A stretch of 38,267 nt of DNA from a virus. Taxonomy: Duplodnaviria; Caudoviricetes. Under the pieces are notes generated by a model, which did not search any database, was not told the origin of the DNA, and saw only the letters and a list, made by a program, of their open reading frames with translations. The position numbers and the translations under genes are program-made. Location of the stretch: IMG/VR virus record IMGVR_UViG_3300020042_005441, positions 1 to 38,267 of that record; one strand, written 5' to 3'. Shown here in pieces: positions 2,258-30,568 of the stretch; within the stretch, counting starts at the first letter, position 1, and the number at the start of each line of letters is the position of its first letter.

Positions 2258-2650
2258 ATGAAAGATCCAAATGAAATTGTAAAAATAGAAAAAGCCATAG
2301 CACAAAAGTATGGTGAAGATACAATAGCAAATCCAAAACATTATTGGAATGAAGAAAAAGAAAAAGAATATGTAGAGCAATTAAAAGAATTATCAGCAAT
2401 ACAAACAAAACAAGAAGAAAAAGACCAAAAAATAAATATTGATGGTATTTTTATTTCTAAAAAACTACTTAATAAAGATAGCAAAAGAACTTGTCCTATT
2501 TGTTCTGTTTATTCATTTAGCAGCAAAGACGATCTATATATGAATAGATATGAATGTTGTTACAAGTGTTATATTCAATGGGTAGAAGGAAGAGAAGAAA
2601 GATGGAAAACAGGTTGGAGGCCAAATGAAAGTAACGTTAACAAGAAGTGA
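2258..2650 (+). CDS. Hypothetical protein with probable Zn-binding Cys cluster
   Basis: CPIC...CCYKC followed by WVEGREERWKTGWRP. Confidence 0.65.
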   Translation: MKDPNEIVKIEKAIAQKYGEDTIANPKHYWNEEKEKEYVEQLKELSAIQTKQEEKDQKINIDGIFISKKLLNKDSKRTCPICSVYSFSSKDDLYMNRYECCYKCYIQWVEGREERWKTGWRPNESNVNKK

Positions 2651-2945
2651 ACTAAAACAAATAATTCAAGAAGAATGGAACAGAGCAGAAGCTTTGGAAC
2701 AAGGTTCTCCAACTGACGGATATGACGAAACAGTCGAGGGACAAGATCAAGAATTAGATTATGAAGGTTACATGACAAAAAGCCAACTTTTTAAAATTGG
2801 TGAATATGCTTTAAAACTTCACGATATGATTAACGACGGCGATAATCTACCAGAGTGGATGCAATCAAAAGTTTCACAAATGGAAAAAGATATTGGCTCT
2901 GTTTACCACGCACTTGAATATGATATAAAAAGAGGAACTATATAA
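2625..2945 (+). CDS. Probable internal head protein
   Basis: SD GGAGG upstream; leader TRSELKQIIQEEW; helical domain EGYMTKSQL...LPEWMQSKV. Confidence 0.6.
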   Translation: MKVTLTRSELKQIIQEEWNRAEALEQGSPTDGYDETVEGQDQELDYEGYMTKSQLFKIGEYALKLHDMINDGDNLPEWMQSKVSQMEKDIGSVYHALEYDIKRGTI

Positions 2946-3514
2946 TGGCTACAACCCTTGAAATAATCCAAGGCATCTCACAAGCTGCCGCAAACGCATA
3001 CGACGGCTCACATATGGCAAAATATAATGCTGATGGTGAGGAAAGAAAGATCGGACTTCGTAGAGAAGACGGTGATCCAATATTGGACTCAAGAGTTATT
3101 GATGGTTTTAAAGTTAAGTTCAAAGGCAACAAACTTTGTATTACTTACCAAAGTGAAATTTCTATGAAAGAAGTTCATAAAGGTCCAAAGTTTGAAAATG
3201 AAATGGAACAAGTTATGGCTGACATTGTTAAGTTCTTAAAGAAAGAATATAAGACAATTACAAAAAATAGTTTATCCCTAAAAGCAATTGGAGAAGTTGA
3301 TATTTTTGTTCAACCAATTTCAAGAACCAGAACAGACCTTAGAATGTATCAAGAGTTTGAAATTTCTTCATTAGATAAGAAAGCAGTTATTTCCGTAGGG
3401 CTTCCAAGTGAAGATATTGTAAATGACGTAACAAGAAAATTTCTTGCTATGGGAAGAGAGAAAGCCAAGAAACCTTCAAATATAACAAGACCAGACGAAA
3501 AGAAAAAAGAATAA
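2945..3514 (+). CDS. Hypothetical protein immediately upstream of terminase
   Basis: 189-aa ORF, TAATG coupling with previous gene. Confidence 0.7.
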   Translation: MATTLEIIQGISQAAANAYDGSHMAKYNADGEERKIGLRREDGDPILDSRVIDGFKVKFKGNKLCITYQSEISMKEVHKGPKFENEMEQVMADIVKFLKKEYKTITKNSLSLKAIGEVDIFVQPISRTRTDLRMYQEFEISSLDKKAVISVGLPSEDIVNDVTRKFLAMGREKAKKPSNITRPDEKKKE

Positions 3515-3522
3515 AATGAAAA

Positions 3523-5112
3523 ATGTCTACAGCATACAAATTAACAAAAGAACAAGTTAAGTCCGAAATTGTAAAGTGTGCTAAAGATCCAATTTATTTT
3601 CTAAACACATACGCAAGAATATCGGACACACAAAAAGGTCCAATACCTTTTAGAACTTATAGTTTTCAAGACGAAGTTCTAAAAGATATGAAGGACTATC
3701 GTTTTAACGTAGTTCTAAAAGCCCGTCAGTTAGGTCTTTCAACAATCGTAGCAGGTTATATAGCTTGGCTAATGTTGTTCCACAGAGATAAGAATGTTCT
3801 TATCTTAGCAACTAAATTACTTTCAGCAGCAAACATGGTTAAGAAAGTTAAGTATATTATTAAAAGTTTACCAGATTGGTTAATGATTGCTGATGTATCA
3901 ATCGACAATAGAAACTCATTTGAACTTACAAACGGTTCACAAATTAAAGCTTCCGCTACGTCTGGTGATGCTGGACGTTCGGAGGCTCTTTCTTTACTTG
4001 TTCTGGACGAAGCTGCGTTCATTGAGAACATGAAAGACTTGTGGACAGGTGTATATCCTACGCTTGCTACTGGTGGTCGTTGTATTGGTATCTCAACTCC
4101 AAATGGTGTAGGTAATTGGTTTCATCAAACTTACTTAGATGCTGAGACAGGCACAAATGAATTTCATCCAGTAAGATTACATTGGTCAGTCCATCCAGAT
4201 AGAGATCAAGCTTGGTTTGAAAGAGAAACCAAGAATATGTCTAAAAGAGAAATTGCACAAGAATATGAATGTTCTTTTAATGCTTCTGGTGAAACCGTAG
4301 TTGGTGCAGAAGAATTAGAATATATAGAAAAGAATTGTAGCGAACCAAAATTTAGAATTCACATAGATAGAAATCTTTGGGTATGGAAAGGATATAATCC
4401 AAACCATTCGTATGTTCTTGTAGCAGATACAGCAAGAGGCGATGGAAAAGATAATTCAGTATTCCATCTTCTTAATCTTGATACTATGGAAATAGTAGCA
4501 GAATATCAAGGAAAAATAACAACAGAAGATTTTGCTGATCTTGTTATCACAACAGGAAAAGAATATAATAATTGTATGGTAGTTATAGAAAACAATAATC
4601 TTGGGTTTTCAGTCTTAGAAAAGATTGTTGATAAAGGATATCCAAATGTTTATTATTCTACAAAAGGTTCTGCTGAATATATAGATCAAATCTCAGCAGA
4701 GGGAACAACAAACACAGTTCCGGGCTTTACTACTTCACATAAATCAAGACCTCTTATAGTAGCAAAGATGGAAGAATTTGTTAGAAATAAAAGTGTTAAA
4801 ATAAATTCTATAAGAACCTTCCACGAACTAAGCACATTTATATGGGTATTAGGAAGACCACAAGCGATGCAAGGATACAACGACGATTTAGTTATGTCCT
4901 TAGCAATTGCTTGTTGGGTCAAGGATACGGTGTTCCAAACCAATCAAAGGGAACTGGAATATAAGAAAGCTATATTGACAGGCTTTACAAAAAGTAATAC
5001 TATATTTGATACTAAAATTTCGGGGATGCAAGGATATAATAGAGACTTGTCTGTATCCTTGGAAAGAGCGAAACAAGAACACGCACAATATTTTTGGATA
5101 TATAAAGGATGA
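3523..5112 (+). CDS. gp17: Terminase large subunit (T4 gp17-like)
   Basis: KCAKDPIYF, Walker A LKARQLGLST, Walker B LLVLDEAAF, STPNG, QEYEC, nuclease ADTARGDGKD and DDLVMS. Confidence 0.97.
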   Translation: MSTAYKLTKEQVKSEIVKCAKDPIYFLNTYARISDTQKGPIPFRTYSFQDEVLKDMKDYRFNVVLKARQLGLSTIVAGYIAWLMLFHRDKNVLILATKLLSAANMVKKVKYIIKSLPDWLMIADVSIDNRNSFELTNGSQIKASATSGDAGRSEALSLLVLDEAAFIENMKDLWTGVYPTLATGGRCIGISTPNGVGNWFHQTYLDAETGTNEFHPVRLHWSVHPDRDQAWFERETKNMSKREIAQEYECSFNASGETVVGAEELEYIEKNCSEPKFRIHIDRNLWVWKGYNPNHSYVLVADTARGDGKDNSVFHLLNLDTMEIVAEYQGKITTEDFADLVITTGKEYNNCMVVIENNNLGFSVLEKIVDKGYPNVYYSTKGSAEYIDQISAEGTTNTVPGFTTSHKSRPLIVAKMEEFVRNKSVKINSIRTFHELSTFIWVLGRPQAMQGYNDDLVMSLAIACWVKDTVFQTNQRELEYKKAILTGFTKSNTIFDTKISGMQGYNRDLSVSLERAKQEHAQYFWIYKG

Positions 5113-5115
5113 TAA

Positions 5116-7125
5116 ATGGCAGATCAAAATAAGAATAATACTAAAAACATAGACTCAGCTTTATTTAAAAGACTAACAAAGCTTTTGTCTGGTCCTATAG
5201 TAAATTATAATCAACCAGTTCAAAGTAGATATAGACGTAACCAAATGGATAAACTTGGTTCAAAGTTTACTTCTGCTTCTGGTTTAGAGTTTAAGAAAAC
5301 TGCTTATAATCCTTATGAGAATTTCTCTTCCAAACTTATGACAAATCAAAATCGTGCCGAAAGGTATATAGATTTTGACCAAATGGAATACATGCCAGAG
5401 ATAGCATCTGCCTTAGATATTTACGCAGATGAAATGACTACATCAAACGAACTTACTCCCTTAATGAGTATCAAATGTCCTAACGAAGAAATCAAAACAA
5501 TTCTTCAAACACTTTATATTAAAACACTTAATTTAGACGCTAACTTGTTTAATTGGTGTAGAAATATGTGTAAGTATGGAGATCACTTTGTTTATCTTGA
5601 TATTGATGAACATTTAGGTATTAAATCTGCTATTGGTCTTCCATCTAATCAAGTTGAAAGAATGGAAGGTAAAGATCCAACCAATCCAAATTACGTTCAA
5701 TTTCAATGGAACTCCGCTGGTATGACGTTTGAGAATTGGCAAGTAGCACATTTCCGTATTCTTGGAAACGATAAACATTCTCCATATGGAACTTCTGTTT
5801 TAGACTCGTCAAGAAGAATTTGGAGACAACTTACTTTACTTGAAGACGCTATGATGGCTTATCGTATTACAAGATCTCCAGAACGTAAAGTATTTTATAT
5901 TGACGTTGGAAATATTCCTCCACAAGAAATCGAACAGTTCATGCAAAGAGCCATGACTACGATGAAAAGAAATCAAATTTTAGACGCTACAACTGGTCGT
6001 GTTGATCTTCGCTATAATCCTATGTCCGTTGACGAGGATTATTTTATTCCTGTTCGTGGTGGAGTAAATAATAATAAAATCGAAGCACTTCCCGGTGGTC
6101 AATTTGCTTCTGCTATTGAGGACGTAAAATATTTAAGAGATAAATTATTTGCTGCTCTTAAAGTTCCTATGTCTTATCTTATTAGAGGAGATGGAGCAAG
6201 TGAAGATAAAGCAACATTAGCACAAAAAGATGTTCGCTTTGCAAGAACTGTTCAAAGATTACAAAGAGTAGTTGTTGGAGAATTAGAAAAGATTGGTATA
6301 GTCCATTTGTTTACACTTGGATACAGAGGATCAGATTTAATTTCATTTAAACTTTCTCTTAACAATCCATCAAAGATTGCAGCACTACAAGAGCTTGAAC
6401 ATTGGAAAACTAAATTTGATGTTGCTGGTGCAGCTACCGAAGGGTATTTCTCTAAACGTTGGATTGCTCACAATATATTTGGTATCTCCGATGAAGAATT
6501 CCTCCGTATCCAAAGAGAACAATTCTATGATCGTAAATTCACAGCCACACTTGAAGCAGCAGGAGCACAACCACAAGGAGGTGGAGGTGGAGGTGGAGGA
6601 GGTGGCCTTGGAGGCGGCTTAGGTGGTGGACCAGAAGAAATGCCACCAGATACAAGCCCAGAAGGAGGCCCACCAGAAGCCCCAGAAGGTGGAGGAGCAC
6701 CAGAAGGTGGAGCAGGAGGAGCAGAAGCCCCAGAAGCCCCACCAGCAGCAGGAGATGAGGGAGGAAGCACATTATTAGCAGCACCCCCCGGTAAAAGAAG
6801 AGATACGGCAGGAAAAGTAATAACAACAACTTTAGCTTCAAAAGGTAAACTATATTCACCAGTAGCTAACAGAGGTGGGGATAAACGAGATGTAGGAGCA
6901 AGAGCCAGAGGATTTAAAGCTTCTGGTGGAGGTTTCACAGCAAGTCCAAGTGTTAAAAATATTTTCCCCGGTCTACAAGATATTAAATCTTTAGCAAATG
7001 CAGCAGGTATTAGTGAAACTTCGCAAGAAAGATACACAGATGAAGAATACGAACTATTTACATTAGAAAAAGAAACTAGAGTTCTTTTAGAAAGTTTGGA
7101 GATAAAAAAGAATGCAAAAGCTTAA
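5116..7125 (+). CDS. gp20: Portal protein (T4 gp20-like) with long Gly/Pro/Glu-rich C-terminal extension
   Basis: PEIASALDIYADE, LLEDAMMAYRITRSPERKVFYIDVGN, EDYFIPVRG, LPGG, DVKYLRDKLFAALKVP; follows terminase. Confidence 0.96.
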   Translation: MADQNKNNTKNIDSALFKRLTKLLSGPIVNYNQPVQSRYRRNQMDKLGSKFTSASGLEFKKTAYNPYENFSSKLMTNQNRAERYIDFDQMEYMPEIASALDIYADEMTTSNELTPLMSIKCPNEEIKTILQTLYIKTLNLDANLFNWCRNMCKYGDHFVYLDIDEHLGIKSAIGLPSNQVERMEGKDPTNPNYVQFQWNSAGMTFENWQVAHFRILGNDKHSPYGTSVLDSSRRIWRQLTLLEDAMMAYRITRSPERKVFYIDVGNIPPQEIEQFMQRAMTTMKRNQILDATTGRVDLRYNPMSVDEDYFIPVRGGVNNNKIEALPGGQFASAIEDVKYLRDKLFAALKVPMSYLIRGDGASEDKATLAQKDVRFARTVQRLQRVVVGELEKIGIVHLFTLGYRGSDLISFKLSLNNPSKIAALQELEHWKTKFDVAGAATEGYFSKRWIAHNIFGISDEEFLRIQREQFYDRKFTATLEAAGAQPQGGGGGGGGGGLGGGLGGGPEEMPPDTSPEGGPPEAPEGGGAPEGGAGGAEAPEAPPAAGDEGGSTLLAAPPGKRRDTAGKVITTTLASKGKLYSPVANRGGDKRDVGARARGFKASGGGFTASPSVKNIFPGLQDIKSLANAAGISETSQERYTDEEYELFTLEKETRVLLESLEIKKNAKA

Positions 7126-7915
7126 ACTCAAACACAATAAGAAAAGAAACACAGCTTTTCTTTTTGAGTCATTAACAAAAGAATTAACAAAGGCAATCGT
7201 AAATAAAGACGAGAAAACAAAACAAATTATTTTGTCTGTTATTAAAGAACATTTTAAAAAAGGTTCAATACTATCAAAAGAATTAGATGTTTATAAATCT
7301 CTTTATGAAACAAGAGGTCTTAATAAAGATACAGCCAATAGAATGTTGAATGAAGCAAAAAGAATGTATGCTACTTTTATGCCTCAAGATATTTTTAATC
7401 AACAAACCAGAATTATAAATGATGTAAATAAAAAAGTAAATGCTTCTGTCTTTACAAACTTTATGTCTAACTACAAAGACCTAGCAACAATAGCTCAAAT
7501 CTTTGATAATGAAATTCCTATGAAGACAAGAGTTATTTTAGAACAATATTTGATTGATAGATTATCTACAGAAGACAACCCACAAAATAACCTTAAACCA
7601 ATTGATAGTCTTGTTTATAAAGAATTCGTAAAGAAATTCAACGACAAGTATGGAACCTCTTTGATGGAAGAACAAAAAGAACTTCTTACCAAATACATTG
7701 CTTCTTATTCAAATGACGATATTGATTTTAAAATGTATCTTAACGAAGAGATTGGAAGAATAAGACAAGTAGTTTTATCATCTAAACAAATCACGGAGAG
7801 TAAAGAAAAAGAAGGATTACTAAATATTCTTGAAGCTTTTAAAACAACACAAGTAACTCCAGCCATGATTGAAAAAGTTTTGAAACTACAACAATTAGTT
7901 AAGGAACTTGTTTAA
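7112..7915 (+). CDS. Hypothetical helical head-module protein
   Basis: 267-aa ORF between portal and protease, starts KHNKKRNTAFLFESL. Confidence 0.7.
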   Translation: MQKLKLKHNKKRNTAFLFESLTKELTKAIVNKDEKTKQIILSVIKEHFKKGSILSKELDVYKSLYETRGLNKDTANRMLNEAKRMYATFMPQDIFNQQTRIINDVNKKVNASVFTNFMSNYKDLATIAQIFDNEIPMKTRVILEQYLIDRLSTEDNPQNNLKPIDSLVYKEFVKKFNDKYGTSLMEEQKELLTKYIASYSNDDIDFKMYLNEEIGRIRQVVLSSKQITESKEKEGLLNILEAFKTTQVTPAMIEKVLKLQQLVKELV

Positions 7916-8490
7916 TGTCAATAAAGATTAAAGTTAAAGACGATAGTATGGAAGGAATTGGGGAACCAGAAATCCCCAAGACCAAAGTTCGTCTTGATAT
8001 AAGAAAAACCTTGGATGGTAATTTTATCATCCAAGATCATCCTTATATTGATATTATAATATCTCCATCAAAAAATAAGATTTTAGCTTTATCTACTATT
8101 GCGATGGATGATAAAGTATATTATACTCAAAATAAATATTTTGACTTTCTTTACAAGCGTGGAGTAATAGATCCATCAACAATTCAAGCTGGAAATATTT
8201 ATGCTTCAATGGAAGCTGCTATCCCTCAAACAACAGAGAAAGTAGATCCTATTGAAGTTATTATATTTTCAACTGCTTTGTTTATAGATAAAGAAAGACC
8301 TTCGTTTGAATATGAGAAGGCTATGAGAAAAATGCAAGACGATTATCTTACTGACCCAAGTGATCAAGATACAACTGAACTTGGAGAAGTGCCACAGAAA
8401 GCTCGTCAAGGTTCAATTGGAACTGCTGCTTACTCTCTTAATAAACATTACAATATCGCTTATCTTGGAGAGCGTAAAGAGAAAAAATAA
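7915..8490 (+). CDS. Hypothetical protein
   Basis: 191-aa ORF, TAATG coupled at both ends. Confidence 0.7.
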   Translation: MSIKIKVKDDSMEGIGEPEIPKTKVRLDIRKTLDGNFIIQDHPYIDIIISPSKNKILALSTIAMDDKVYYTQNKYFDFLYKRGVIDPSTIQAGNIYASMEAAIPQTTEKVDPIEVIIFSTALFIDKERPSFEYEKAMRKMQDDYLTDPSDQDTTELGEVPQKARQGSIGTAAYSLNKHYNIAYLGERKEKK

Positions 8491-8801
8491 TGTTCCTCCC
8501 ATACTTCATACTAATTTGTTATGGTTTAACCAATATCCTTGTTTATGGTTCTATATTTAATTGTATAAGACCAAAACAAGGATTATGGGGAGAACTATTC
8601 AAATGTCCTATGTGTATGGGATTTCATGTTGGATATATAATTGCTCTATTATTAAATGCTTCTGATCTATTTAGTATATCAATCAACATAATCGATATGT
8701 TTATGTTGGCTTGTCTTTCATCGGGGACTTCTTATGTTCTTTGTTCATTATTCACGGATTTTGGAATTAATTTCAATATCAACAAGCAAGATAACAAATA
8801 A
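8490..8801 (+). CDS. Small membrane protein with CPxC motif (DUF1360-like)
   Basis: About three hydrophobic segments; ELFKCPMCMGFHVG. Confidence 0.6.
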   Translation: MFLPYFILICYGLTNILVYGSIFNCIRPKQGLWGELFKCPMCMGFHVGYIIALLLNASDLFSISINIIDMFMLACLSSGTSYVLCSLFTDFGINFNINKQDNK

Positions 8802-8830
8802 GTAAACTAATTAAAATAGTCGGAGATATT

Positions 8831-8920
8831 ATGAAAGTTAATTTAACACAAGGCTTTTGGACTCGTAAATGGGCTCTACAACCAGTTCGTCTGTGTTGCA
8901 GGGGCAAGCCGAAAGGTTAG
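8831..8920 (+). CDS. 29-aa peptide MKVNLTQGFWTRKWALQPVRLCCRGKPKG (absent from ORF track)
   Basis: GGAG at 8822-8825, ATG 8831, TAG 8918-8920; fills the gap before the protease; ACTAATTA at 8806-8813. Confidence 0.65.
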   Translation: MKVNLTQGFWTRKWALQPVRLCCRGKPKG

Positions 8921-8932
8921 GAAAACATATAA

Positions 8933-9526
8933 ATGAATAAAACGTTATTAAGAGAATTTTTTGAATTATGCCCCGATGGAATCTGCGAAGACATACTTAC
9001 AGAGTCCGATAAACACTTTATTAAAAGTGGTGGTATGATGTTGTCTGGTGTAATCCAAAGAGCAGATGCGAGAAATGGAAATGGAAGAATTTATCCTCAT
9101 TCTGTTTTATCGAGAGAAATGGATACATACAAACAACTTGTTCAAGAAAGAAGAGCACTTGGAGAATTAGATCATCCAGATCAATCAGTAATTAATCTTA
9201 AAAACGTTTCACATCTTGTAGTAGAAGTTTGGTGGAATGGAAAAGATGTAATGGGAAAGATCCAAGTTCTTAACACACCATCTGGTCAAGTATTAAGAGA
9301 GTTAGTTAACGCTAATGTTAAAATTGGTATATCTTCAAGAGGTACAGGTTCTGTTAGAGAAAACAGAGGCGAAACTATTGTTGAAGATGATTTCCAATTA
9401 ATTTGTTTTGATATTGTTTCGGAGCCTTCTACTCATGGAGCATTTATGTTCCAAGAGAGAAAAGGAAATGTAAACGAAAATAAACAAGCAAGAGTTTCAA
9501 ATCTTATCAAAGATATTTTAAAATAA
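8933..9526 (+). CDS. gp21: Prohead protease (T4 gp21-like)
   Basis: NGNGRIYP, catalytic His in GELDHP, catalytic Ser in GISSRGTGS, DIVSEPST. Confidence 0.95.
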   Translation: MNKTLLREFFELCPDGICEDILTESDKHFIKSGGMMLSGVIQRADARNGNGRIYPHSVLSREMDTYKQLVQERRALGELDHPDQSVINLKNVSHLVVEVWWNGKDVMGKIQVLNTPSGQVLRELVNANVKIGISSRGTGSVRENRGETIVEDDFQLICFDIVSEPSTHGAFMFQERKGNVNENKQARVSNLIKDILK

Positions 9527-9540
9527 AAGGAGTTTTATAA

Positions 9541-9861
9541 ATGCAACTTACAACACAACGTCTCAAGCAAATCATCAAAGAAGAACTTGAAGCAATCGTA
9601 TCAGAATTGGAACCAGAGGAAGAAGTGCTTTCCCCAGAAGAAGAAAGAGTAGCTTCACTTGAACAACAACTTGCAGAAGCCAAAAAGAAAGTTGAAATGA
9701 AAGGCAAAGAAAAGAAAGGCGGCACAAAAGCTGCTATGAAAGGTAAAAGCGCACCAGTAGGTAAAAGAGGAACAGTAGCCCCCGCTGCCGCACCTATGAA
9801 AGCAAATAATGTTGGCAACCTTTATGGCAAGGGTCCAACAAAAATGCCTACAAAAAAGTGA
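9541..9861 (+). CDS. Probable internal head protein with acidic N-half and Lys/Ala/Pro-rich basic tail
   Basis: SD AAGGAG; leader LTTQRLKQIIKEEL. Confidence 0.65.
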   Translation: MQLTTQRLKQIIKEELEAIVSELEPEEEVLSPEEERVASLEQQLAEAKKKVEMKGKEKKGGTKAAMKGKSAPVGKRGTVAPAAAPMKANNVGNLYGKGPTKMPTKK

Positions 9862-9869
9862 AATAAATT

Positions 9870-9930
9870 AAACCTTAATTGAGGTTTTTGAATATGAGGT
9901 GGTGTATTTACTTACATCACCTCTATTTAT
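9870..9930 (+). terminator. Two tandem hairpins, probable intrinsic terminator(s), overlapping a CTATTTAT promoter candidate
   Basis: AAACCTT-aatt-GAGGTTT (9870-9887) and GAGGTGGTGTA-tttact-TACATCACCTC (9896-9923) followed by T-rich tract. Confidence 0.6.
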
Positions 9931-9951
9931 ATTTGAAAGGAAATCTTGTTT

Positions 9952-10770
9952 ATGAATATTAATGAAAATAAAGTTAGACAAATAATCAAAGAAGAACTAA
10001 AACAATATTTAATTGAAGAAGGTTTTTTTGATACCATAAAAAGTTTTGGTAAAAAAGTATTTGGTGGAGAAAAGAAAGAAACTCCAAGTTCTTTAAATGG
10101 ATCAGATCCAGAACGGATGGGTACAAAAGGCAGAGACGAAACTGACAGACCAAATCCAGAACAAGGACAATCAGTTAGAACAAAGTACGCGAATGACGTT
10201 CAAAGTTATAAATATGGATTTCCTATAAAAGCTTTACCAGATTTGGAAAAAGCGTTAACCTATTATAGAACATTATCAAAACGTAATGAAGCTGGTGCTG
10301 TTGAAGCTGTAGCAAAAATTATGACGCATCTTCAAAGAAGTTTGGCTAAGAAAAAATCTTTGAATGATTTGGCTACTGGAGAAATTCAATCATACCAAAC
10401 ATTTATAAAAGATATCGAGGATCATTTAACACAAGAACAAGAACCAATTTATGTAAATGAAAATCTTTTTTCCGATAAATCTATTGATACTGCACTTGTA
10501 ATACCAAATAATATTGTTTCAAAAGTATTAGTACAATTACAAGATTTTATATTTGATGAGTTATCAGATAAATATGACTTTAATGAAATATTTAAGAAAG
10601 AACGAGTAAGACAAGAATTTCAAGCATTAAAAAATGTAGTTAGTAGTTCTGCCCCAAAAAAGCAACAACAAAAAAACTCAGCTTCTGTATCAGATCCAGT
10701 TGAAAAATTTACAGATACTTATTTAGAAGAAATTAGACGTAAGAGAGCGAAATGGATAAAAATGATTTAA
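9952..10770 (+). CDS. Probable internal head protein (start moved to ATG 9952)
   Basis: GAAAGG upstream; leader INENKVRQIIKEEL...LIEE|GFFDTIK. Confidence 0.65.
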   Translation: MNINENKVRQIIKEELKQYLIEEGFFDTIKSFGKKVFGGEKKETPSSLNGSDPERMGTKGRDETDRPNPEQGQSVRTKYANDVQSYKYGFPIKALPDLEKALTYYRTLSKRNEAGAVEAVAKIMTHLQRSLAKKKSLNDLATGEIQSYQTFIKDIEDHLTQEQEPIYVNENLFSDKSIDTALVIPNNIVSKVLVQLQDFIFDELSDKYDFNEIFKKERVRQEFQALKNVVSSSAPKKQQQKNSASVSDPVEKFTDTYLEEIRRKRAKWIKMI

Positions 10771-11174
10771 AGAAAATTTTAAAACCTCTTGTTAAAGCCT
10801 TAGTAAAAGAAGCGATGCAAGAGGAATTATCCACGGTAATAAGTGAGATAATAAAACAAACAGCAGGATCATCACAGATAGTTGAAAGAAAACAACCAAC
10901 TATCGATCCAAGACTACAACAAGAAAGAACGATTGCTAAACAACAAGCACAAAGCGAAAGAAAGAAGATGCTTGAAGAATTAAGCAAAAAATCTTATGGT
11001 GGTATAAATATATTTGAAGGAACAACTCCATTAGGAAAAGGTGGAGAAATAAGCGAAAGCAGATCGTTAACACCATCAGCAGGAGAACCCTTGTCTGGTG
11101 TAGACCCACATGATCCCGGTGTTGATATTGGTGGTCTTCTTAAACTTACAGGTGGTTGGAAACAAATTAAATGA
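10752..11174 (+). CDS. Hypothetical head-module protein
   Basis: Leader-like KNDLKKILKPLVKALVKEAMQEEL; C-terminal GVDPHDPGVDI. Confidence 0.65.
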   Translation: MDKNDLKKILKPLVKALVKEAMQEELSTVISEIIKQTAGSSQIVERKQPTIDPRLQQERTIAKQQAQSERKKMLEELSKKSYGGINIFEGTTPLGKGGEISESRSLTPSAGEPLSGVDPHDPGVDIGGLLKLTGGWKQIK

Positions 11175-12163
11175 AATATATAACAGAGCAACAAATTAGA
11201 AAAGTTATAAGAGAAGAAATTAAATCTTATCTTTTGGAACAAGAAGAACCAAAAAAAGATGATAAACCAAAATCTAAATTTAGAAAAATTCTAACTTCTA
11301 CAGCAGTTGCTTTGTTAGGATTTTTTGCTGGAACTTCCTATAACCCAGAAGTGCAAGCAGTAATACCAGAACCAATAGAAGACATTGGTAGTGATGATGC
11401 TAGTGGTGGAGGTGGTAGTGGTGGAGGTGGTAGTGGTCTGGAGGAACTATCAAATCTTATTGAAGATACTACGAAAGAATTAATAAAGTTAGGCGCAACA
11501 GAACAATACGCACAAAGTTTAATTTCTAGAACTGTTGAGTATGGAAATATAGAATTTGAAATTCGCGCTAAAGGTATTAAAGATGAAAATAGAGGAGCAG
11601 AATATGTATCATTTATGTTATCTAGATTTTCTGCTTTACAAAATCCAGAAGCACTTTCAAAGGTAGCAGCACAAGATTTCTTACAACGAGCACAATCAGT
11701 TGGTACACATCGCATTATGGCTGCACAGATAAACCCAGAAACTGGAGAAACGACGGTTGGAACACCTATTCCATCTTATTCTTTACAAGTTGCTTTTGCT
11801 TATGAAATGTTAACTATTGTTGAAGAAGAAGATAAATTACCAGAAGAAACACCAAAGGTATACACTCAAATGATTGTTGATTCTTTTAATAAAGAAACAA
11901 ATTCTTATGTAATAATACCAACTATTCTTCCATTTTTCCAACAAGTAGCAAAAGAGGGTTCTCCATTCGAAAAAGCCATATTAGATGTAATACCACAAGT
12001 AAAAGTCGATGCTTCTACATTTGAAGAAGAACAAAATAATAATGTTATGGAAAAAATAAACAAAGGAGTAGGTGCTACAGTTAGAAATAAAGAATCAGTA
12101 GAAGAAAATAAAGTTAATAAATTAAGACAAAAAATAAACGAATTGAGAGGTGTTTATGTCTAA
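11171..12163 (+). CDS. Probable internal head protein with hydrophobic segment and (G4S)2 linker
   Basis: Leader ITEQQIRKVIREEI...LLE; KFRKILTSTAVALLGFFAG; SGGGGSGGGGSG. Confidence 0.65.
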   Translation: MKYITEQQIRKVIREEIKSYLLEQEEPKKDDKPKSKFRKILTSTAVALLGFFAGTSYNPEVQAVIPEPIEDIGSDDASGGGGSGGGGSGLEELSNLIEDTTKELIKLGATEQYAQSLISRTVEYGNIEFEIRAKGIKDENRGAEYVSFMLSRFSALQNPEALSKVAAQDFLQRAQSVGTHRIMAAQINPETGETTVGTPIPSYSLQVAFAYEMLTIVEEEDKLPEETPKVYTQMIVDSFNKETNSYVIIPTILPFFQQVAKEGSPFEKAILDVIPQVKVDASTFEEEQNNNVMEKINKGVGATVRNKESVEENKVNKLRQKINELRGVYV

Positions 12164-12437
12164 AAGTAAGAATCTTCACGCAAAAGTAATCCCAAAGAAG
12201 GGAGAACCTTTTGAAAGAATGGTGAAGAGATTTTTAAAGAAAGTAAAAAAAGAACAAGTTATAGAACAAGTTAAAGATAGAAGATATTATGAAAAACCAT
12301 CTGTTACCAAAAAGAAAGAAAAACTTGCTGGAATTGCTAGATGGAAAAAGTTTGAAGCAGATAAAAAAAAGAAAGAAACATTAAAAGAAGCTAATTATAA
12401 TAAACGTGTAGATAACAATAAAAGAAGGGAAGATTAA
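12156..12437 (+). CDS. rpsU: Phage-encoded 30S ribosomal protein bS21
   Basis: KKGEPFERMVKRFLKKVKKEQVIEQVKDRRYYEKPSVTKK matches the bS21 pattern E.fE.alkRFk+k....i...+.R.yyeKPS; SD GAGAGG before ATG 12156. Confidence 0.9.
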   Translation: MSKSKNLHAKVIPKKGEPFERMVKRFLKKVKKEQVIEQVKDRRYYEKPSVTKKKEKLAGIARWKKFEADKKKKETLKEANYNKRVDNNKRRED

Positions 12438-18364: not shown

Positions 18365-19393
18365 ATGTCTTCTTTGTTAGAACAAGCAATTATAGATGCT
18401 ACAGCATTAAAAGAAGCTGCACTTAAGAATGCAGAAGCACAAGTATTAGAAAGATATTCAACTGAAGTAAAAGACGCAATAAAAACCTTATTAGAACAAG
18501 ACGAAGGCTTTAATTCACCAGCAGCATCAGAAGGTTCAACCTCTGGTATTAATGGTGGAAGTGTTGGAGATCAAATGACCCAATCTTATAAAGACGGACA
18601 AAAGATGTGTGCTTGTCCAGAAGATGGGGATCAAATTACAATTGATTTAACAGTTGGTGATGTTGATGGAATAGCCAAAGAAGCTAATATTGATCTTTCT
18701 GGTAATAATGGTTCTGCTATGTCTCGTGACGACTTTCTTCAATCACAAGCATCACAACTTCAAGAAGGCGAAGAATATGAGATTGATAAAGGCGAACTTT
18801 TAGATCTCTATGAAAAACTTACAGTAGATGCAAGAGTAGTTCCATATGGTAATATTGAATATCCAGCAAACACACTTGAAGTAGAATATGCAAAAGATAT
18901 TGCAGCAGCCAAAAGAATTCAACTTCAAGCAGAAGAAGAAGTTGAAGTTAAGGTTGAAGAAAACAAAAAGCTTACAAGACAAAATAAAAATTTACAAGTT
19001 GAATATAAAAAACTTGAAAAGATTACTGAAGCACTCGCAAATAAAGTAGAAAATTACGAGAGCAAGATATCACAACTTAAAGAGAGGTTTGATCGTTTGA
19101 GTTTATCAAATGCTAAACTTCTTTTCACAAATCGCGTATTAAATAGTAACTCCTTGAATGAGCGACAAAAAGATAAAATTGTCGAAGCACTATCAAACGC
19201 AAAATCAGCAGATGAAGCAAAGACAATTTACGAAACACTTCAAAGCACCGTGCAGGGCAATAACAAAGTTAATGCTCCAAAATCACTTAGCGAAGCAATA
19301 AGTAGATCTTCTTCAACTGTAGTTCAAACAAAGCAAAATGATACAGCAACTCCAGAAGTGGAAAGAATGCGTCGTTTAGCAGGTATTAAATAA
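18365..19393 (+). CDS. Prohead scaffold/core protein (T4 gp22-like; start likely 18365)
   Basis: Acidic coiled coil immediately before MCP; many [LIV]xE sites; NAKLLFTN, ends RMRRLAGIK. Confidence 0.8.
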   Translation: MSSLLEQAIIDATALKEAALKNAEAQVLERYSTEVKDAIKTLLEQDEGFNSPAASEGSTSGINGGSVGDQMTQSYKDGQKMCACPEDGDQITIDLTVGDVDGIAKEANIDLSGNNGSAMSRDDFLQSQASQLQEGEEYEIDKGELLDLYEKLTVDARVVPYGNIEYPANTLEVEYAKDIAAAKRIQLQAEEEVEVKVEENKKLTRQNKNLQVEYKKLEKITEALANKVENYESKISQLKERFDRLSLSNAKLLFTNRVLNSNSLNERQKDKIVEALSNAKSADEAKTIYETLQSTVQGNNKVNAPKSLSEAISRSSSTVVQTKQNDTATPEVERMRRLAGIK

Positions 19394-19418: not shown

Positions 19419-21191
19419 ATGTCTATTATAGAAAAGTTAACAGAGGGCATGGTTCACCGTGACCTCGCAAGAGAAGGAACAGCCCTTCTTAAGAAATGGG
19501 AAAAAACAGGTCTTCTTGAAGGTATTCGTACAGAAAGATCACAACACACAATGGCTCGTCTTCTTGAGAACCAAGCAAAAGAGCTTCTTCGTGAGTCAAA
19601 CTCAATGGCTGGTGGCGATGTAGAAGGTTTTGCAGCAGTTGCGTTCCCAATAGTTCGCAGAGTATTCGCTGGCCTTATCGCCAACGATTTAGTTTCAGTT
19701 CAACCAATGTCACTTCCATCCGGTCTTATCTTCTTCCTTGACTTCAAAGTTTCGGACAGCAACGGTGCTCCAAGATTGGGTTATGGCGTAAATGATTCAC
19801 TTTATGGTGGTGGCGTTCTTGGTCAACAAATCACTGGTGGTGTTTCACTAACTGGTGTAAATGCTGACAAGGGTTTCTACAATATGAATAATGGTTATTC
19901 ATCACCAACAGGTTCAGTAGCAATTGCAACTCTAATAGTTGCTTCTGGTACTATACAAGATGGTGGTATTCCATTGTTCGGTGGTGGTACTGCTGCTTAT
20001 ACATCTCTTTCAAGTCTTCTTCGTTACGACGCAGATCTCGTAAGTGGTTCAGCATTTGCAGTTGCAACTGTTCCTCTTGCAACATTTAAAACAACAGCAC
20101 AGTTTAGTGATAGAAATCTCGTAGCCATTTCTTTCGCCGCAGTAAACACAGGTGCTTCAACAATTACTGATGGTCGTTTGGTTCGTCGTCTTACAAGAAT
20201 TGACCCAACAAACGCAGCAAATGTTCTCTTCGTTGTTGAAGCCTCTGGTGGTGTTGGTGGTGAAACCTCAGTTCTACTTTCTTCATCACTTGATGCTGTA
20301 TCAACTTGCACCTTCCCAATTACTGATGCCTTCGGTATATCAGTAGCCGCTGGTTCAACCAACGCTCTTGGTGCAATTGCTGGTCAAAATACTTGGGGTC
20401 TTGAAGGAAACTCAAACATTCCAGAAATTGATATAAAAATTGACTCAGTATCAATTACTGCTGTCACCAAGAAAATGAAAGCAAAATGGACACCAGAACT
20501 TGGTCAAGACCTTAATGCTTATCACAATCTTGATGCAGAAGTTGAACTTACTTCAATTCTTTCGGAACAAATCGGTCTTGAAATCGACCGTGAAATTCTT
20601 GAAGACCTTATCAAAGGTGCAACCGCTGGTTCGTTCTACTGGTCAAGATCACCCGGTTTATTCGTAAATCGTATAACTGGTGTTGAAGTTGGTGCAGCAA
20701 CCAAAGCTCCAGACTTCACTGGTACTGTGTCACAATGGTATGAAACACTCATTGAAACAATCAATGATGTATCAGCACAAATCCACAGAAAGACACTTCG
20801 CGGTGGTGCAAACTTCATCGTATGTGGTCCAGAAACTGCAAACGTTCTTGAGTTTACTTCTGGTTTTAGAGCCAAAGTAACTCACGAAGACGAGAAGGGT
20901 GAAATTGGAGCAGTTAACGTTGGTTCAATCTCCAAGAAGTTTGACGTTTACGTTGATCCATACTTCCTTCGTAACGTAATCCTCGTTGGTCGTAAGGGTA
21001 GCTCATTCCTTGAGTCTGGCTATGTATACGCACCATACGTTCCATTACAAGTAACTCCTACCATCTTTGGTACTGACGATTTCGTCCCACGCAAAGGTGT
21101 TATGACACGTTACGCTAAGAAAATGGTTAAGCCAGATATGTACGGCTTGGTCATTATTCGTGGTCTTCTTGGCGAAAGCGGCGGCTCATGA
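19419..21191 (+). CDS. gp23: Major capsid protein (T4 gp23-like)
   Basis: LLENQ, PIVRRVF..LIANDLVSVQPMSLPSGLIFFLDF, KAKWTPELGQDLNAYHNLDAEVEL, EIDREI, YAPYVPL, PRKGVMTRY. Confidence 0.97.
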   Translation: MSIIEKLTEGMVHRDLAREGTALLKKWEKTGLLEGIRTERSQHTMARLLENQAKELLRESNSMAGGDVEGFAAVAFPIVRRVFAGLIANDLVSVQPMSLPSGLIFFLDFKVSDSNGAPRLGYGVNDSLYGGGVLGQQITGGVSLTGVNADKGFYNMNNGYSSPTGSVAIATLIVASGTIQDGGIPLFGGGTAAYTSLSSLLRYDADLVSGSAFAVATVPLATFKTTAQFSDRNLVAISFAAVNTGASTITDGRLVRRLTRIDPTNAANVLFVVEASGGVGGETSVLLSSSLDAVSTCTFPITDAFGISVAAGSTNALGAIAGQNTWGLEGNSNIPEIDIKIDSVSITAVTKKMKAKWTPELGQDLNAYHNLDAEVELTSILSEQIGLEIDREILEDLIKGATAGSFYWSRSPGLFVNRITGVEVGAATKAPDFTGTVSQWYETLIETINDVSAQIHRKTLRGGANFIVCGPETANVLEFTSGFRAKVTHEDEKGEIGAVNVGSISKKFDVYVDPYFLRNVILVGRKGSSFLESGYVYAPYVPLQVTPTIFGTDDFVPRKGVMTRYAKKMVKPDMYGLVIIRGLLGESGGS

Positions 21192-28793: not shown

Positions 28794-28802
28794 ACTATTT
28801 AT
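28794..28802 (+). promoter_or_regulatory. Candidate late promoter ACTATTTAT
   Basis: After terminator, 20 nt before ATG 28823. Confidence 0.55.
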
Positions 28803-28822: not shown

Positions 28823-30568
28823 ATGTCTGATAGATTAAGAGAAGGTAGAGTAACTGATATGTTTAAAAGTGCTGCTTCTGGTCTTGGAAATGCTTTTTTT
28901 GGAAAACCAAACAAAGCTGAAGAACCAAGTGAGCAAGGTAGCTCTACTACAACCCAACCTTCAACCCAACCTTCAACCCAACCTTCAAATCAAAGTGATA
29001 CAACAACGGCTTCCAAACAAGCTAAAGGAACTAGTGCTGATAAAGGTGGAGGAAGAGTTCAGCCAAAAGCTGGTATAGTAGACGTAAGAAGAGCTACATA
29101 TGGTAAAATGATGTTAGCACTTCAAACTGCTGGTGTAACCGATCAACAACAACAAAAAGAATATGCAGAACAAATAATAACAAACATTATTATTCCTTTT
29201 TTAACCGTTCATTTAAATGCAAGAGGATTAAACGTTACAGATTTAAGAAGTAAAAAATCTTCTTTATCTCAAAATTCAACAAAAGACCAATCTGGAAATC
29301 CAAGAGTTATAACATTATCTGAAGCTAAAGCTTCTTCTAGAAAAATAAATCAATCAAATAATACTAAACAAACGCCAGAGCAAAAAGCAAAAAGCGAAAA
29401 GCAAAAAGAATTTAGAAGAGCAAGAGATCAAGAAAGAGTAGCAGCTAAGGAAGCTCTTTCGACAAACGATAATAGTTCAAAGGATGCAGACGAAAATGTA
29501 GAAGATCCACCAACTAATCCCGGTCAAGAAACAGAAAGTTTAAAAAATTATAGTAATCAATTAGATAAAATAGATAAAAAAGTATTTCCAAAAGAGCTAG
29601 GCAAAAATCCAGTTTTAATTCTTTCTAAGTTGTTTGCAGCAAATCCACAATTAGCAAAAGAATTTGGATTTAAGCAAGAAATTAAAGAAGCTATAGATAA
29701 CGAAATACAAAAAAACTATAAAGGTGATCAAATAAATGATCAACCAGTTAAATTATTAAAAGCTTTAGAAAAACAAAATATAAAGATTAATCTTGTACAA
29801 GCTAAAAGTCTTGCTCAAAGTATAATATCTTTAAATCCACAACAAGTAAAAACAGCAAAACAAGTTAATAGAACTAGTAGTAATCTATCTCAACAACAAG
29901 CTGCTCCTGTTGAGACTGATGAGAAAAAGCTTAAGGATGTAAAAGATTATATGGTGTCTAAAACTGATGCAATATCTCAAGCTACAACTTTTGCTTCTAT
30001 ATATAAAATTATTTATGATATGCCCGAGACTATTGCTCTTAAAAAACAATATCGTGATAAGATAAGAATAGTAATGGATAATCCAGCTGTGGCTAATAGC
30101 ACTACTTTTACAGAATTATTTACAAATGGAGGAGGCTTTCGTAATAAAGTTATTGAACTTGCAAAAATACAAGCAGCAAAAAAACAACCTCAAGCACAAC
30201 CAGCAGCACAAGCACAACCTCAAGCACAACCAGCAGCACAAGCACCAGTTGCTTTAATTCCACAAACGCCAGAAGCACAAGCAATAGTAAAAACTAAAAT
30301 TGATATAAACCAACCAATTCCTTTATTTACTGGTCATGCTAATCTATTACAAAGAATAAATAGTTCTATAAAAAGTAGAGCTAAAAGTGTCAATGTAAAT
30401 GATCCAAATATTCAAAATCAATTTAAACAAATAATTAAAGACTTAGTTGATCAATTAAAAATTAATGGTATCACTAATAAACAAATTCAAGAAAATTTTG
30501 ACTTTACACAAGAACTATTAAACGAAACAATAGTTAATCGTTGGAAAGTTTTAGCTAACATTAAATAA
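28823..30568 (+). CDS. Large Gln/Lys-rich protein, probable internal head/ejection protein (start likely 28823)
   Basis: LRE|G at N-terminus, internal LSE, IKE, IQE, LNE sites, C-terminal RWKVLANIK resembling the scaffold end. Confidence 0.6.
   Translation: MSDRLREGRVTDMFKSAASGLGNAFFGKPNKAEEPSEQGSSTTTQPSTQPSTQPSNQSDTTTASKQAKGTSADKGGGRVQPKAGIVDVRRATYGKMMLALQTAGVTDQQQQKEYAEQIITNIIIPFLTVHLNARGLNVTDLRSKKSSLSQNSTKDQSGNPRVITLSEAKASSRKINQSNNTKQTPEQKAKSEKQKEFRRARDQERVAAKEALSTNDNSSKDADENVEDPPTNPGQETESLKNYSNQLDKIDKKVFPKELGKNPVLILSKLFAANPQLAKEFGFKQEIKEAIDNEIQKNYKGDQINDQPVKLLKALEKQNIKINLVQAKSLAQSIISLNPQQVKTAKQVNRTSSNLSQQQAAPVETDEKKLKDVKDYMVSKTDAISQATTFASIYKIIYDMPETIALKKQYRDKIRIVMDNPAVANSTTFTELFTNGGGFRNKVIELAKIQAAKKQPQAQPAAQAQPQAQPAAQAPVALIPQTPEAQAIVKTKIDINQPIPLFTGHANLLQRINSSIKSRAKSVNVNDPNIQNQFKQIIKDLVDQLKINGITNKQIQENFDFTQELLNETIVNRWKVLANIK
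28950..28988 (+). repeat. 12-bp tandem repeat x3 (TQPS)
   Basis: caacccaacctt x3 + caa. Confidence 0.9.
30184..30245 (+). repeat. 30-bp tandem repeat x2 (QPQAQPAAQA)
   Basis: acaacctcaagcacaaccagcagcacaagc x2. Confidence 0.9.

What the first reader, a model, noticed from the sequence alone, without database searches (positions are those of the whole stretch)
2625..12163. Shared N-terminal leader on unrelated proteins: candidate capsid-cargo addressing signal
Seen: four otherwise dissimilar ORFs start with the same motif: 2625 LTRSELKQIIQEEW, 9541 LTTQRLKQIIKEEL, 9952 INENKVRQIIKEEL, 11171 ITEQQIRKVIREEI, with a looser copy at 10752 (KNDLKKILKPLVK..MQEEL). Each is followed within about 10 residues by an xxE site (ALE, VSE, LIE, LLE). 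Four of the five sit right behind the prohead protease. Known: T4 internal proteins use a short N-terminal capsid targeting sequence removed by gp21 at [LI]xE. Inference: a portable amphipathic helix that loads diverse cargo into the prohead, is cleaved, and leaves the cargo for ejection. Its sequence is unlike the T4 one.
Basis: partly seen in the sequence, partly recalled or inferred. Interest (0 to 1): 0.8.

Follow-up and report, generated by a model that had tools for sequence, protein, structure and literature searches.

The report
Portable head-loading tag on phage proteins
Four unrelated proteins of this uncultured T4-like phage, and thousands of protein families in its relatives, start with the same short helical peptide, which likely loads them into the forming virus head and is likely clipped off by the head protease, as phage T4 does with a tag of different sequence; neither loading nor clipping has been observed.

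Summary
The leader (consensus MKITKxQLKQIIKEEL) is clade-wide: 8,828 protein clusters at 50% identity match it. Its exact 15-residue form hits 0 of 185,579 prokaryote genomes but 140 viral stretches. An [LIVM]xE site follows it in 68-74% of copies (31-49% in shuffles) and precedes 60% of internal copies (17%). This is the motif at the capsid protein's T4-equivalent cut site. Tagged genes tend to lie behind the same upstream motif as structural genes. Some also carry a copy of the scaffold's C-terminal peptide. Best reading (0.65): a T4-CTS-like address-and-clip tag of unrelated sequence; packaging, cutting and ejection are all inferred. Against: the cut site is not universal (47 of 114 in the 2625 family), cargo is nearly all unannotated, and no binding partner was tested. 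This scan reported the same idea before on other DNA (356 notes); I found no paper on this motif. Cultured Flavobacterium phage immuto carries it, so it is testable.

The parts
2625..2945 (+). Tagged ORF, 106 aa: leader A, variable acidic linker, conserved helical hairpin (residues 52-103)
   Evidence: (I13, I14, E16, E17 invariant in 44 sequences)
2625..2699 (+). Leader A, residues 1-25 to the ALE site; predicted helix 7-25
8933..9526 (+). Prohead protease (Peptidase_S77), His/Ser/Asp motifs aligned with T4 gp21
9541..9861 (+). Tagged ORF, 106 aa: leader A (9541-9606, VSE site), acidic stretch, Lys/Gly/Ala/Pro-rich basic tail (body charge +7)
9923..9929 (+). CTATTTA, late-promoter-like motif ahead of 9952; the same motif precedes scaffold, neck, sheath and 28823
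   Evidence: 7 intergenic copies against 0.26 expected
9952..10770 (+). Tagged ORF, 272 aa: leader A (9952-10020, LIE/IEE site); orphan body; gene absent from close relative L001
10021..10065 (+). Gly-started amphipathic cationic 15-mer right after the predicted cut (moment 0.51, charge +2); identical in homologues whose bodies are 33-35% alike
10752..11174 (+). Conserved 140-aa gene behind the protease; helical N-terminus, LEEG site in most relatives; match to leader A not above chance
11171..12163 (+). Tagged ORF, 330 aa: leader A (11171-11239, LLE site), basic then hydrophobic segment (11288-11332), helical domain 88-300 of no known fold, C-terminal peptide behind an [LIVM]xE-NK site in 17 of 17 aligned
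18365..19393 (+). Scaffold-like protein (by position before the capsid gene, coiled coil, conserved LxE sites); C-terminal tag C R[MW]xxLAGI at 19364-19393
19419..21191 (+). Major capsid protein (Gp23); LRE 57-59 aligns with the T4 gp23 cut site LTE-65
28823..30568 (+). 581-aa orphan in the tail cluster ending in a copy of scaffold tag C (30539-30568) after LNE; CTATTTA upstream at 28795

Best explanation
A 16-23-residue peptide (a short strand, a predicted amphipathic helix, then usually an [LIVM]xE site) starts four unrelated proteins here and likely works as an address tag that draws them into the assembling prohead, where the phage's S77 protease likely cuts after the glutamate and leaves the body in the head. 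Shown: motif, conservation at protein level, position, flanking sites, intact protease motifs, the same site type in the capsid protein, a shared upstream DNA motif, and co-occurrence with the scaffold's tail peptide. Inferred: late expression, binding to the core, cleavage. Internal copies flanked by sites on both sides would let one gene release several pieces. Whether bodies are ejected into the host or only fill and shape the core is open and probably differs by protein.
For: (1) 126 of 135 matrix hits in 1,340 ORFs of the window plus 80 relatives are N-terminal, 0 in shuffles; 128 tagged ORFs fall into 55 body clusters; in loci picked by the motif, 267 fall into 189 clusters. (2) [LIVM]xE within 14 residues after the core: 74% of 103 (same-residue shuffles 49%, untagged control 25% of 445); 68% of 268 (31%); replicated 171 of 252 (37%; control 22% of 285); peak at +6. 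(3) Internal copies: 60% of 159 have such a site in the 10 residues before them (17% in shuffles), and 101 of 180 non-N-terminal copies keep the Met. (4) All 19 clade capsid proteins have LRE/LKE where T4 gp23 is cut at LTE-65; protease triad motifs are intact. (5) CTATTTA: 7 intergenic copies against 0.26 expected in the window; in G001, 9 of 11 tagged genes (A or B) lie in a cluster behind it against 41 of 214 others, including an island next to the DNA polymerase. (6) The scaffold's C-terminal peptide recurs on non-scaffold proteins; 5 carry leader A plus it, 1 leader B plus it. (7) 1,003 of 3,175 identical residues in within-locus copies use different codons. (8) 0 exact matches in prokaryote genomes. 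(9) Precedent: T4 CTS (PMC5694885, PMC3012670, passages) and P1 DarB's unrelated 30-residue signal (PMC9024508, abstract and passages).
Against: No virion, cleavage or binding data. The downstream site is present in only 47 of 114 tagged members of the 2625 family. Part of the +6 signal may just be the helix continuing (Leu at i+4, then Glu). In G002 only 5 of 10 tagged genes lie behind the upstream motif against 52 of 225 (p 0.07; a six-frame scan found further tags that this count lacks). Only 33 of 139 motif-picked loci have a head gene in the fetched flank (many loci are short). Cultured relatives Mel-JY01 and RM378 have no match. Cargo is almost all unannotated: 2 of 124 and about 4 of 71 have a Pfam family, so nothing shows a function after ejection. 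No sequence link to the T4 CTS.
Confidence: 0.65

Rival explanations
1. The peptide is a self-association or scaffold-binding helix that builds the prohead core itself; tagged proteins are gp67/gp68-like core or filler proteins that are mostly degraded, and multi-copy proteins are cross-linkers, not deliveries.
For: Bodies are short (median 123 aa), richer in E/D/A/G/P and poorer in aromatics than untagged ORFs, and turn over between close relatives. The top 150 matches carry 2-4 copies. Several carry the scaffold's tail peptide.
Against: Some bodies are folded enzymes or domains: L,D-transpeptidase, FliG-C, pentapeptide repeat with leader A; kinase and 5'-nucleotidase with leader B. The 11171 body folds as a helical domain. 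A core filler does not explain 189 unrelated bodies.
Confidence: 0.18
2. The helix binds something outside the head (a phage chaperonin, a membrane assembly site or a tail part), and the Glu-rich ends are not cut.
For: G001 encodes a GroEL; many tagged islands lie far from head genes; the site is missing in many members.
Against: Sites flank internal copies on both sides, match the capsid protein's cut motif and co-occur with the scaffold tail. No tail or baseplate gene of the window or G001 carries the leader.
Confidence: 0.11
3. The shared start is a DNA-level feature: a recombination anchor or a favourable translation start reused when genes are swapped, with no protein function.
For: Tandem arrays of tagged genes; gene turnover at fixed slots; identical ends around divergent middles in 9952 homologues.
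Against: 32% of identical residues use different codons within one locus; conservative swaps (I/L/V, K/R) keep the helix face; internal copies persist with flanking sites. It may add to, but cannot replace, a protein role.
Confidence: 0.06

Closest known systems
Phage T4 capsid targeting sequence (CTS) of IPI-III and Alt, removed by gp21 (PMC5694885, PMC3012670: passages read; Mullaney and Black 1996 seen only as cited there)
   Same: Short conserved N-terminal peptide on diverse, fast-changing bodies; ends in an [IL]xE site; T4-type portal, protease and capsid protein in the same phage.
   Different: No sequence likeness (T4 IPII/IPIII start MKTYQEFIAE, score -5.5); about twice as long; also internal and C-terminal, up to 4 per protein; thousands of families; runs beside two other tags (B and scaffold-tail C); untested.
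Propeptides of SPN3US/phiKZ-type giant phage head proteins (PMC5694885, PMC10052503: passages read)
   Same: Many inner head proteins cut after Glu by the prohead protease; paralogues gp53/gp54 share an identical 15-residue start; mature gp47 begins with a transmembrane segment, like the segment after the cut in 11171.
   Different: Those propeptides are mostly over 100 residues, with AXE/SXE motifs, in a different phage lineage; no shared motif across unrelated bodies is described in the passages read.
Phage P1 DarB N-terminal capsid targeting signal (PMC9024508: abstract and passages read)
   Same: A 30-residue N-terminal signal unrelated to T4's is enough to package a reporter.
   Different: One protein only; the authors found no consensus among Dar proteins.
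bS21-encoding freshwater phages (bioRxiv 10.1101/2021.10.11.463225: passages read)
   Same: bS21 beside terminase, portal, protease and capsid genes; protease co-transcribed with its downstream hypothetical gene late in infection.
   Different: bS21 is on the opposite strand there and on the same strand here; the word 'motif' does not occur in that text.

Membership tests
T4-type capsid targeting sequence | Short conserved N-terminal peptide shared by otherwise unrelated proteins | tested here: met
T4-type capsid targeting sequence | Sequence similarity to the T4 CTS | tested here: not met
   T4 IPI-III, Alt, gp21-24, gp67, gp68 score at most 5.2, threshold 16
T4-type capsid targeting sequence | Ends in the prohead protease motif [ILV]xE | tested here: met
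   68-74% of copies against 31-49% in shuffles; not universal, 47 of 114 in the 2625 family
T4-type capsid targeting sequence | Phage encodes a gp21-type protease with intact triad and a gp23-type capsid protein with the matching site | tested here: met
T4-type capsid targeting sequence | Tagged proteins are in the head and are cut | not testable with these tools
   no virion proteome found for this clade
T4-type capsid targeting sequence | Peptide binds the scaffold core and suffices to package a foreign protein | not tested
   complex prediction could not be run: the queue was full; sufficiency needs a bench test
SPN3US/phiKZ-type long propeptides | Propeptide over 100 residues with AXE/SXE site | tested here: not met
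   sites peak 6 residues after a 16-residue core; P3 mostly L/I/V/M by the pattern used
bS21 phage clades of bioRxiv 2021.10.11.463225 | bS21 on the strand opposite to the head genes | tested here: not met
   bS21 at 12150-12437 on + like the head genes
Any catalogued domain | Match to Pfam, PHROGs, NCBIfam or a solved structure | tested here: not met
   best E 0.19; 4 of 55 members at E 0.005-0.01 to unnamed families

The most novel reading that the evidence does not exclude
A large aquatic myovirus clade runs a multi-tag protein delivery system: three tags (leader A, leader B, a copy of the scaffold tail) load thousands of unrelated proteins, multi-tag genes act as polyproteins cut into several cargoes, and for a subset the cut unmasks a Gly-started amphipathic or hydrophobic helix (as in 9952 and 11171) that engages the host membrane on ejection, alongside injected enzymes such as an L,D-transpeptidase and kinases.
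Probability: 0.22. Interest if true: 0.8.

Novelty: new variant of a known kind. Interest (0 to 1): 0.52.

Why it matters
If right, one short motif marks the hidden head proteome of a large, mostly uncultured phage clade: 8,828 or more protein clusters now called hypothetical become candidates for virion-borne proteins, a pool where counter-defence and host-takeover factors are expected by analogy with T4 IPI. It also addresses how T4-like heads select what they carry, and offers a second packaging tag for engineering. The principle is known from T4 and P1; the sequence, the scale, the internal copies and the parallel tags are what differ. A cultured phage carries it, so one proteomics run can test it.

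Tried and rejected
10752 as a fifth copy: not above chance. Leader derived from the protease's C-terminal helix, the scaffold or T4 gp67: looks alike by eye, no profile match. Read-through joining 9541 and 9952: a database holds a 409-aa form (P0301), but it needs five TGA codons read as Trp across the intergenic stretch, all 13 homologues are separate 254-283-aa proteins and the frame is not kept in relatives; taken as a gene-calling artefact. Whole-window CTATTTA count is not enriched (14 against 14.3); only its intergenic placement is. Fold searches of the 2625 and 11171 models: nothing at E<=0.001. ESM Atlas: no usable hit for 9952 or 11171. tblastn of a two-copy protein against annotated phages: no match. 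RNA-library contigs cover parts of 2625, 8933-9775, 9952 and 10752, but contigs cannot show level, strand or timing, so they are not used as support. A/B swaps on related bodies: only 2 pairs, both partial matches; weak. Scaffold-leader complex prediction: not run, the queue was full; binding partner untested. Literature searches found no paper on this motif; the library lacks most subscription journals, and I read no supplements (those of the bS21 preprint are closed and could list these families).
Full report
Setting. The window is a 38-kb fragment and is all that is held of this genome. It is the head and tail module of a T4-like myovirus: terminase 3523, Portal_T4 5116, Peptidase_S77 8933, ribosomal protein bS21 12150, Gp23 capsid protein 19419, sheath 23528, tube 26367. 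The 342-aa gene before the capsid gene is taken as the scaffold by position and build (inference). The nearest cultured phages by capsid protein are Flavobacterium phage immuto, Microcystis phage Mel-JY01 and Rhodothermus RM378, all under 60% identical. The host is not shown.

Observation. The five starts are as quoted. A strict pattern hits 5 of 40 ORFs, all at the N-terminus, against 0.014 in shuffles. The bodies are unrelated and none has a Pfam, PHROGs or NCBIfam family. Profile comparison confirms 2625, 9541, 9952 and 11171 (93-97%) but not 10752 (18%, level with chance). AlphaFold2 gives the 2625 leader as a helix over residues 7-25, pLDDT about 78, followed by a disordered linker; the same stretch in 11171 is helical at low confidence.

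Scale. In 80 loci fetched by the protease, a matrix seeded on the four leaders and iterated on the same ORFs finds 135 hits in 1,340 ORFs, 126 N-terminal, none in three shuffles; 128 tagged ORFs make 55 body clusters. A 33-position profile matches 8,828 of 1.84 billion representatives at E<=0.001. The best 150 all carry 2-4 copies, as the scoring favours, and 101 of 180 non-N-terminal copies keep the Met, which points to gene fusion. The exact 15-residue consensus has 0 matches in 185,579 prokaryote genomes and 140 stretches in half of the viral collection (a strict pattern, so looser cellular copies are not excluded). In 139 of those loci, 275 of 929 ORFs are tagged and 267 N-led ones make 189 clusters. 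Whole-record searches give 24 matches in 484-kb phage LR756508, 23 within 143-244 kb around the capsid gene at 172 kb, 3 in immuto, 1 weak in LR756511, and none in Mel-JY01 or RM378. Conservation acts on the protein: 1,003 of 3,175 identical residues in within-locus copies use different codons.

Cut sites. An [LIVM]xE site lies within 14 residues after the core in 74% of 103 distinct copies from the protease loci (same-residue shuffles 49%, max 62%; untagged control 25% of 445), 68% of 268 in the representatives (31%), and 171 of 252 in the motif-picked loci (37%; control 22% of 285). It peaks at +6 and Gly is the commonest next residue. Some of this may be the helix running on. The better test is upstream of internal copies, where no helix precedes: 60% of 159 have an [LIVMF]xE site in the last 10 residues against 17%, peaking three residues before the Met position. 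All 19 clade capsid proteins read LRE or LKE where T4 gp23 is cut at LTE-65, and the protease keeps the His, Ser and Asp motifs (the 65-residue T4 propeptide from PMC5694885, passages). Against: in the 2625 family only 47 of 114 tagged members have the downstream site, though 29 of 29 in the 11171 and 13 of 13 in the 9952 family do. The core itself contains I-x-E.

Head and late context. CTATTTA is not enriched overall, but 7 copies lie between genes against 0.26 expected: ahead of 9952, 16844, scaffold, neck, sheath, 28823 and 30603. In complete genome G001, 9 of 11 tagged genes lie in a cluster behind it against 41 of 214 others, including three leader-A genes just after the DNA polymerase; 7 of 14 structural and 2 of 14 replication genes do. 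In G002 it is 5 of 10 against 52 of 225, p 0.07 (one search found more tags than that ORF set held). That it is a late promoter is inference. Of 106 G001 proteins of 135 aa or more sent to PHROGs (most head and tail genes already identified by BLAST were left out), 33 have a named function by my count; none has leader A and one, a 5'-nucleotidase, has leader B. Two more tags exist: leader B (consensus MKLLFENWRKYLNE) and the scaffold's C-terminal R[MW]xxLAGI, which also ends window protein 28823 and starts immuto gp083; 5 proteins carry A plus C and one B plus C, from about three independent families. Slots on both sides of the protease change their tagged genes between close relatives.

Cargo. 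Almost all orphan: 2 of 124 scanned (of 125 picked; one cut by a contig end was dropped) have a Pfam family, an L,D-transpeptidase and a FliG C-terminal domain. In another 71: a pentapeptide repeat and DUF5661 with A, two kinases with B, plus two sub-cutoff hits. After the predicted cut, 14 of 78 and 12 of 180 distinct 15-mers start Gly/Ala-hydrophobic-hydrophobic against about 1 expected, with a raised hydrophobic moment. In 9952 this segment is identical in homologues whose middles are 33-35% alike. Its likeness to membrane-active peptides is recalled, not tested. 11171 has a hydrophobic segment after the leader and a conserved C-terminal peptide behind an [LIVM]xE-NK site in 17 of 17 sequences; the last residues overlap the bS21 start, which explains part of that conservation.

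Mechanism. Most likely (0.65) the helix docks on the prohead core, the protease cuts after the Glu, and the body stays in the head; multi-copy proteins would be released in pieces. Shown: the sequence features and their statistics. Inferred: timing, docking, cutting, ejection. Rivals: core-building or filler helix (0.18), a partner outside the head (0.11), a DNA-level anchor (0.06). The complex prediction that could have separated the first two was not run because the queue was full.

Comparison. It works like the T4 CTS (PMC5694885, PMC3012670, passages) but fails the sequence test, so it is not filed as a member. P1 DarB shows that unrelated signals exist (PMC9024508, abstract and passages). 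SPN3US uses long propeptides (PMC5694885, PMC10052503, passages). PMC13326640 and PMC11348598 (passages) added nothing. Ten searches found no paper on this motif; supplements were not read. This scan has noted the same idea on other DNA many times (356 notes). These are unchecked and not counted as support. I had found tags B and C and the upstream motif before seeing the notes that mention them; one note is marked as partly fallen on later checking.

Verdict. Real, widespread, a new variant of a known kind; interest 0.52. It is testable at once in phage immuto.

Noticed in passing
window 28823-30568: 581-aa Gln/Ala/Pro-rich orphan in the tail cluster ends in a copy of the scaffold's C-terminal peptide and has its own CTATTTA motif.
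   Followed up: partly
window 12150-12437: Ribosomal protein bS21 directly behind the tagged cluster, on the same strand as the head genes, unlike the published bS21 clades.
   Followed up: partly
L151:7764-8564 (-): L,D-transpeptidase (YkuD) domain fused to leader A: a cell-wall enzyme as candidate virion cargo.
   Followed up: no
L114:117-494 (+): FliG C-terminal domain fused to leader A in a phage gene upstream of the terminase.
   Followed up: no
L081:8069-9106; L096:16666-17682 (-); L081:10152-10784: Protein kinases and a 5'-3' deoxyribonucleotidase carrying leader B in complete genomes G001 and G002.
   Followed up: no
window 10752-11174: Conserved 140-aa gene behind the protease in many relatives, with a long helical N-terminus and an LEEG site; candidate core protein or receptor for the tags.
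   Followed up: partly
window 9470-9526: The protease has a C-terminal extension behind xxE-NK/SK sites ending in an amphipathic helix, kept across the relatives printed; candidate self-cleaved tail.
   Followed up: partly
window 8802-8932: 131-nt gap before the protease holds a possible short ATG ORF with two Cys near its end; not examined.
   Followed up: no
window 9859-9951: Five in-frame TGA codons between 9541 and 9952 led a database to call a fused 409-aa protein; taken as an artefact.
   Followed up: yes
L106 (LR756508.1 151949-193517): 484-kb phage with dense arrays of leader-A genes on both sides of its protease and capsid genes.
   Followed up: partly
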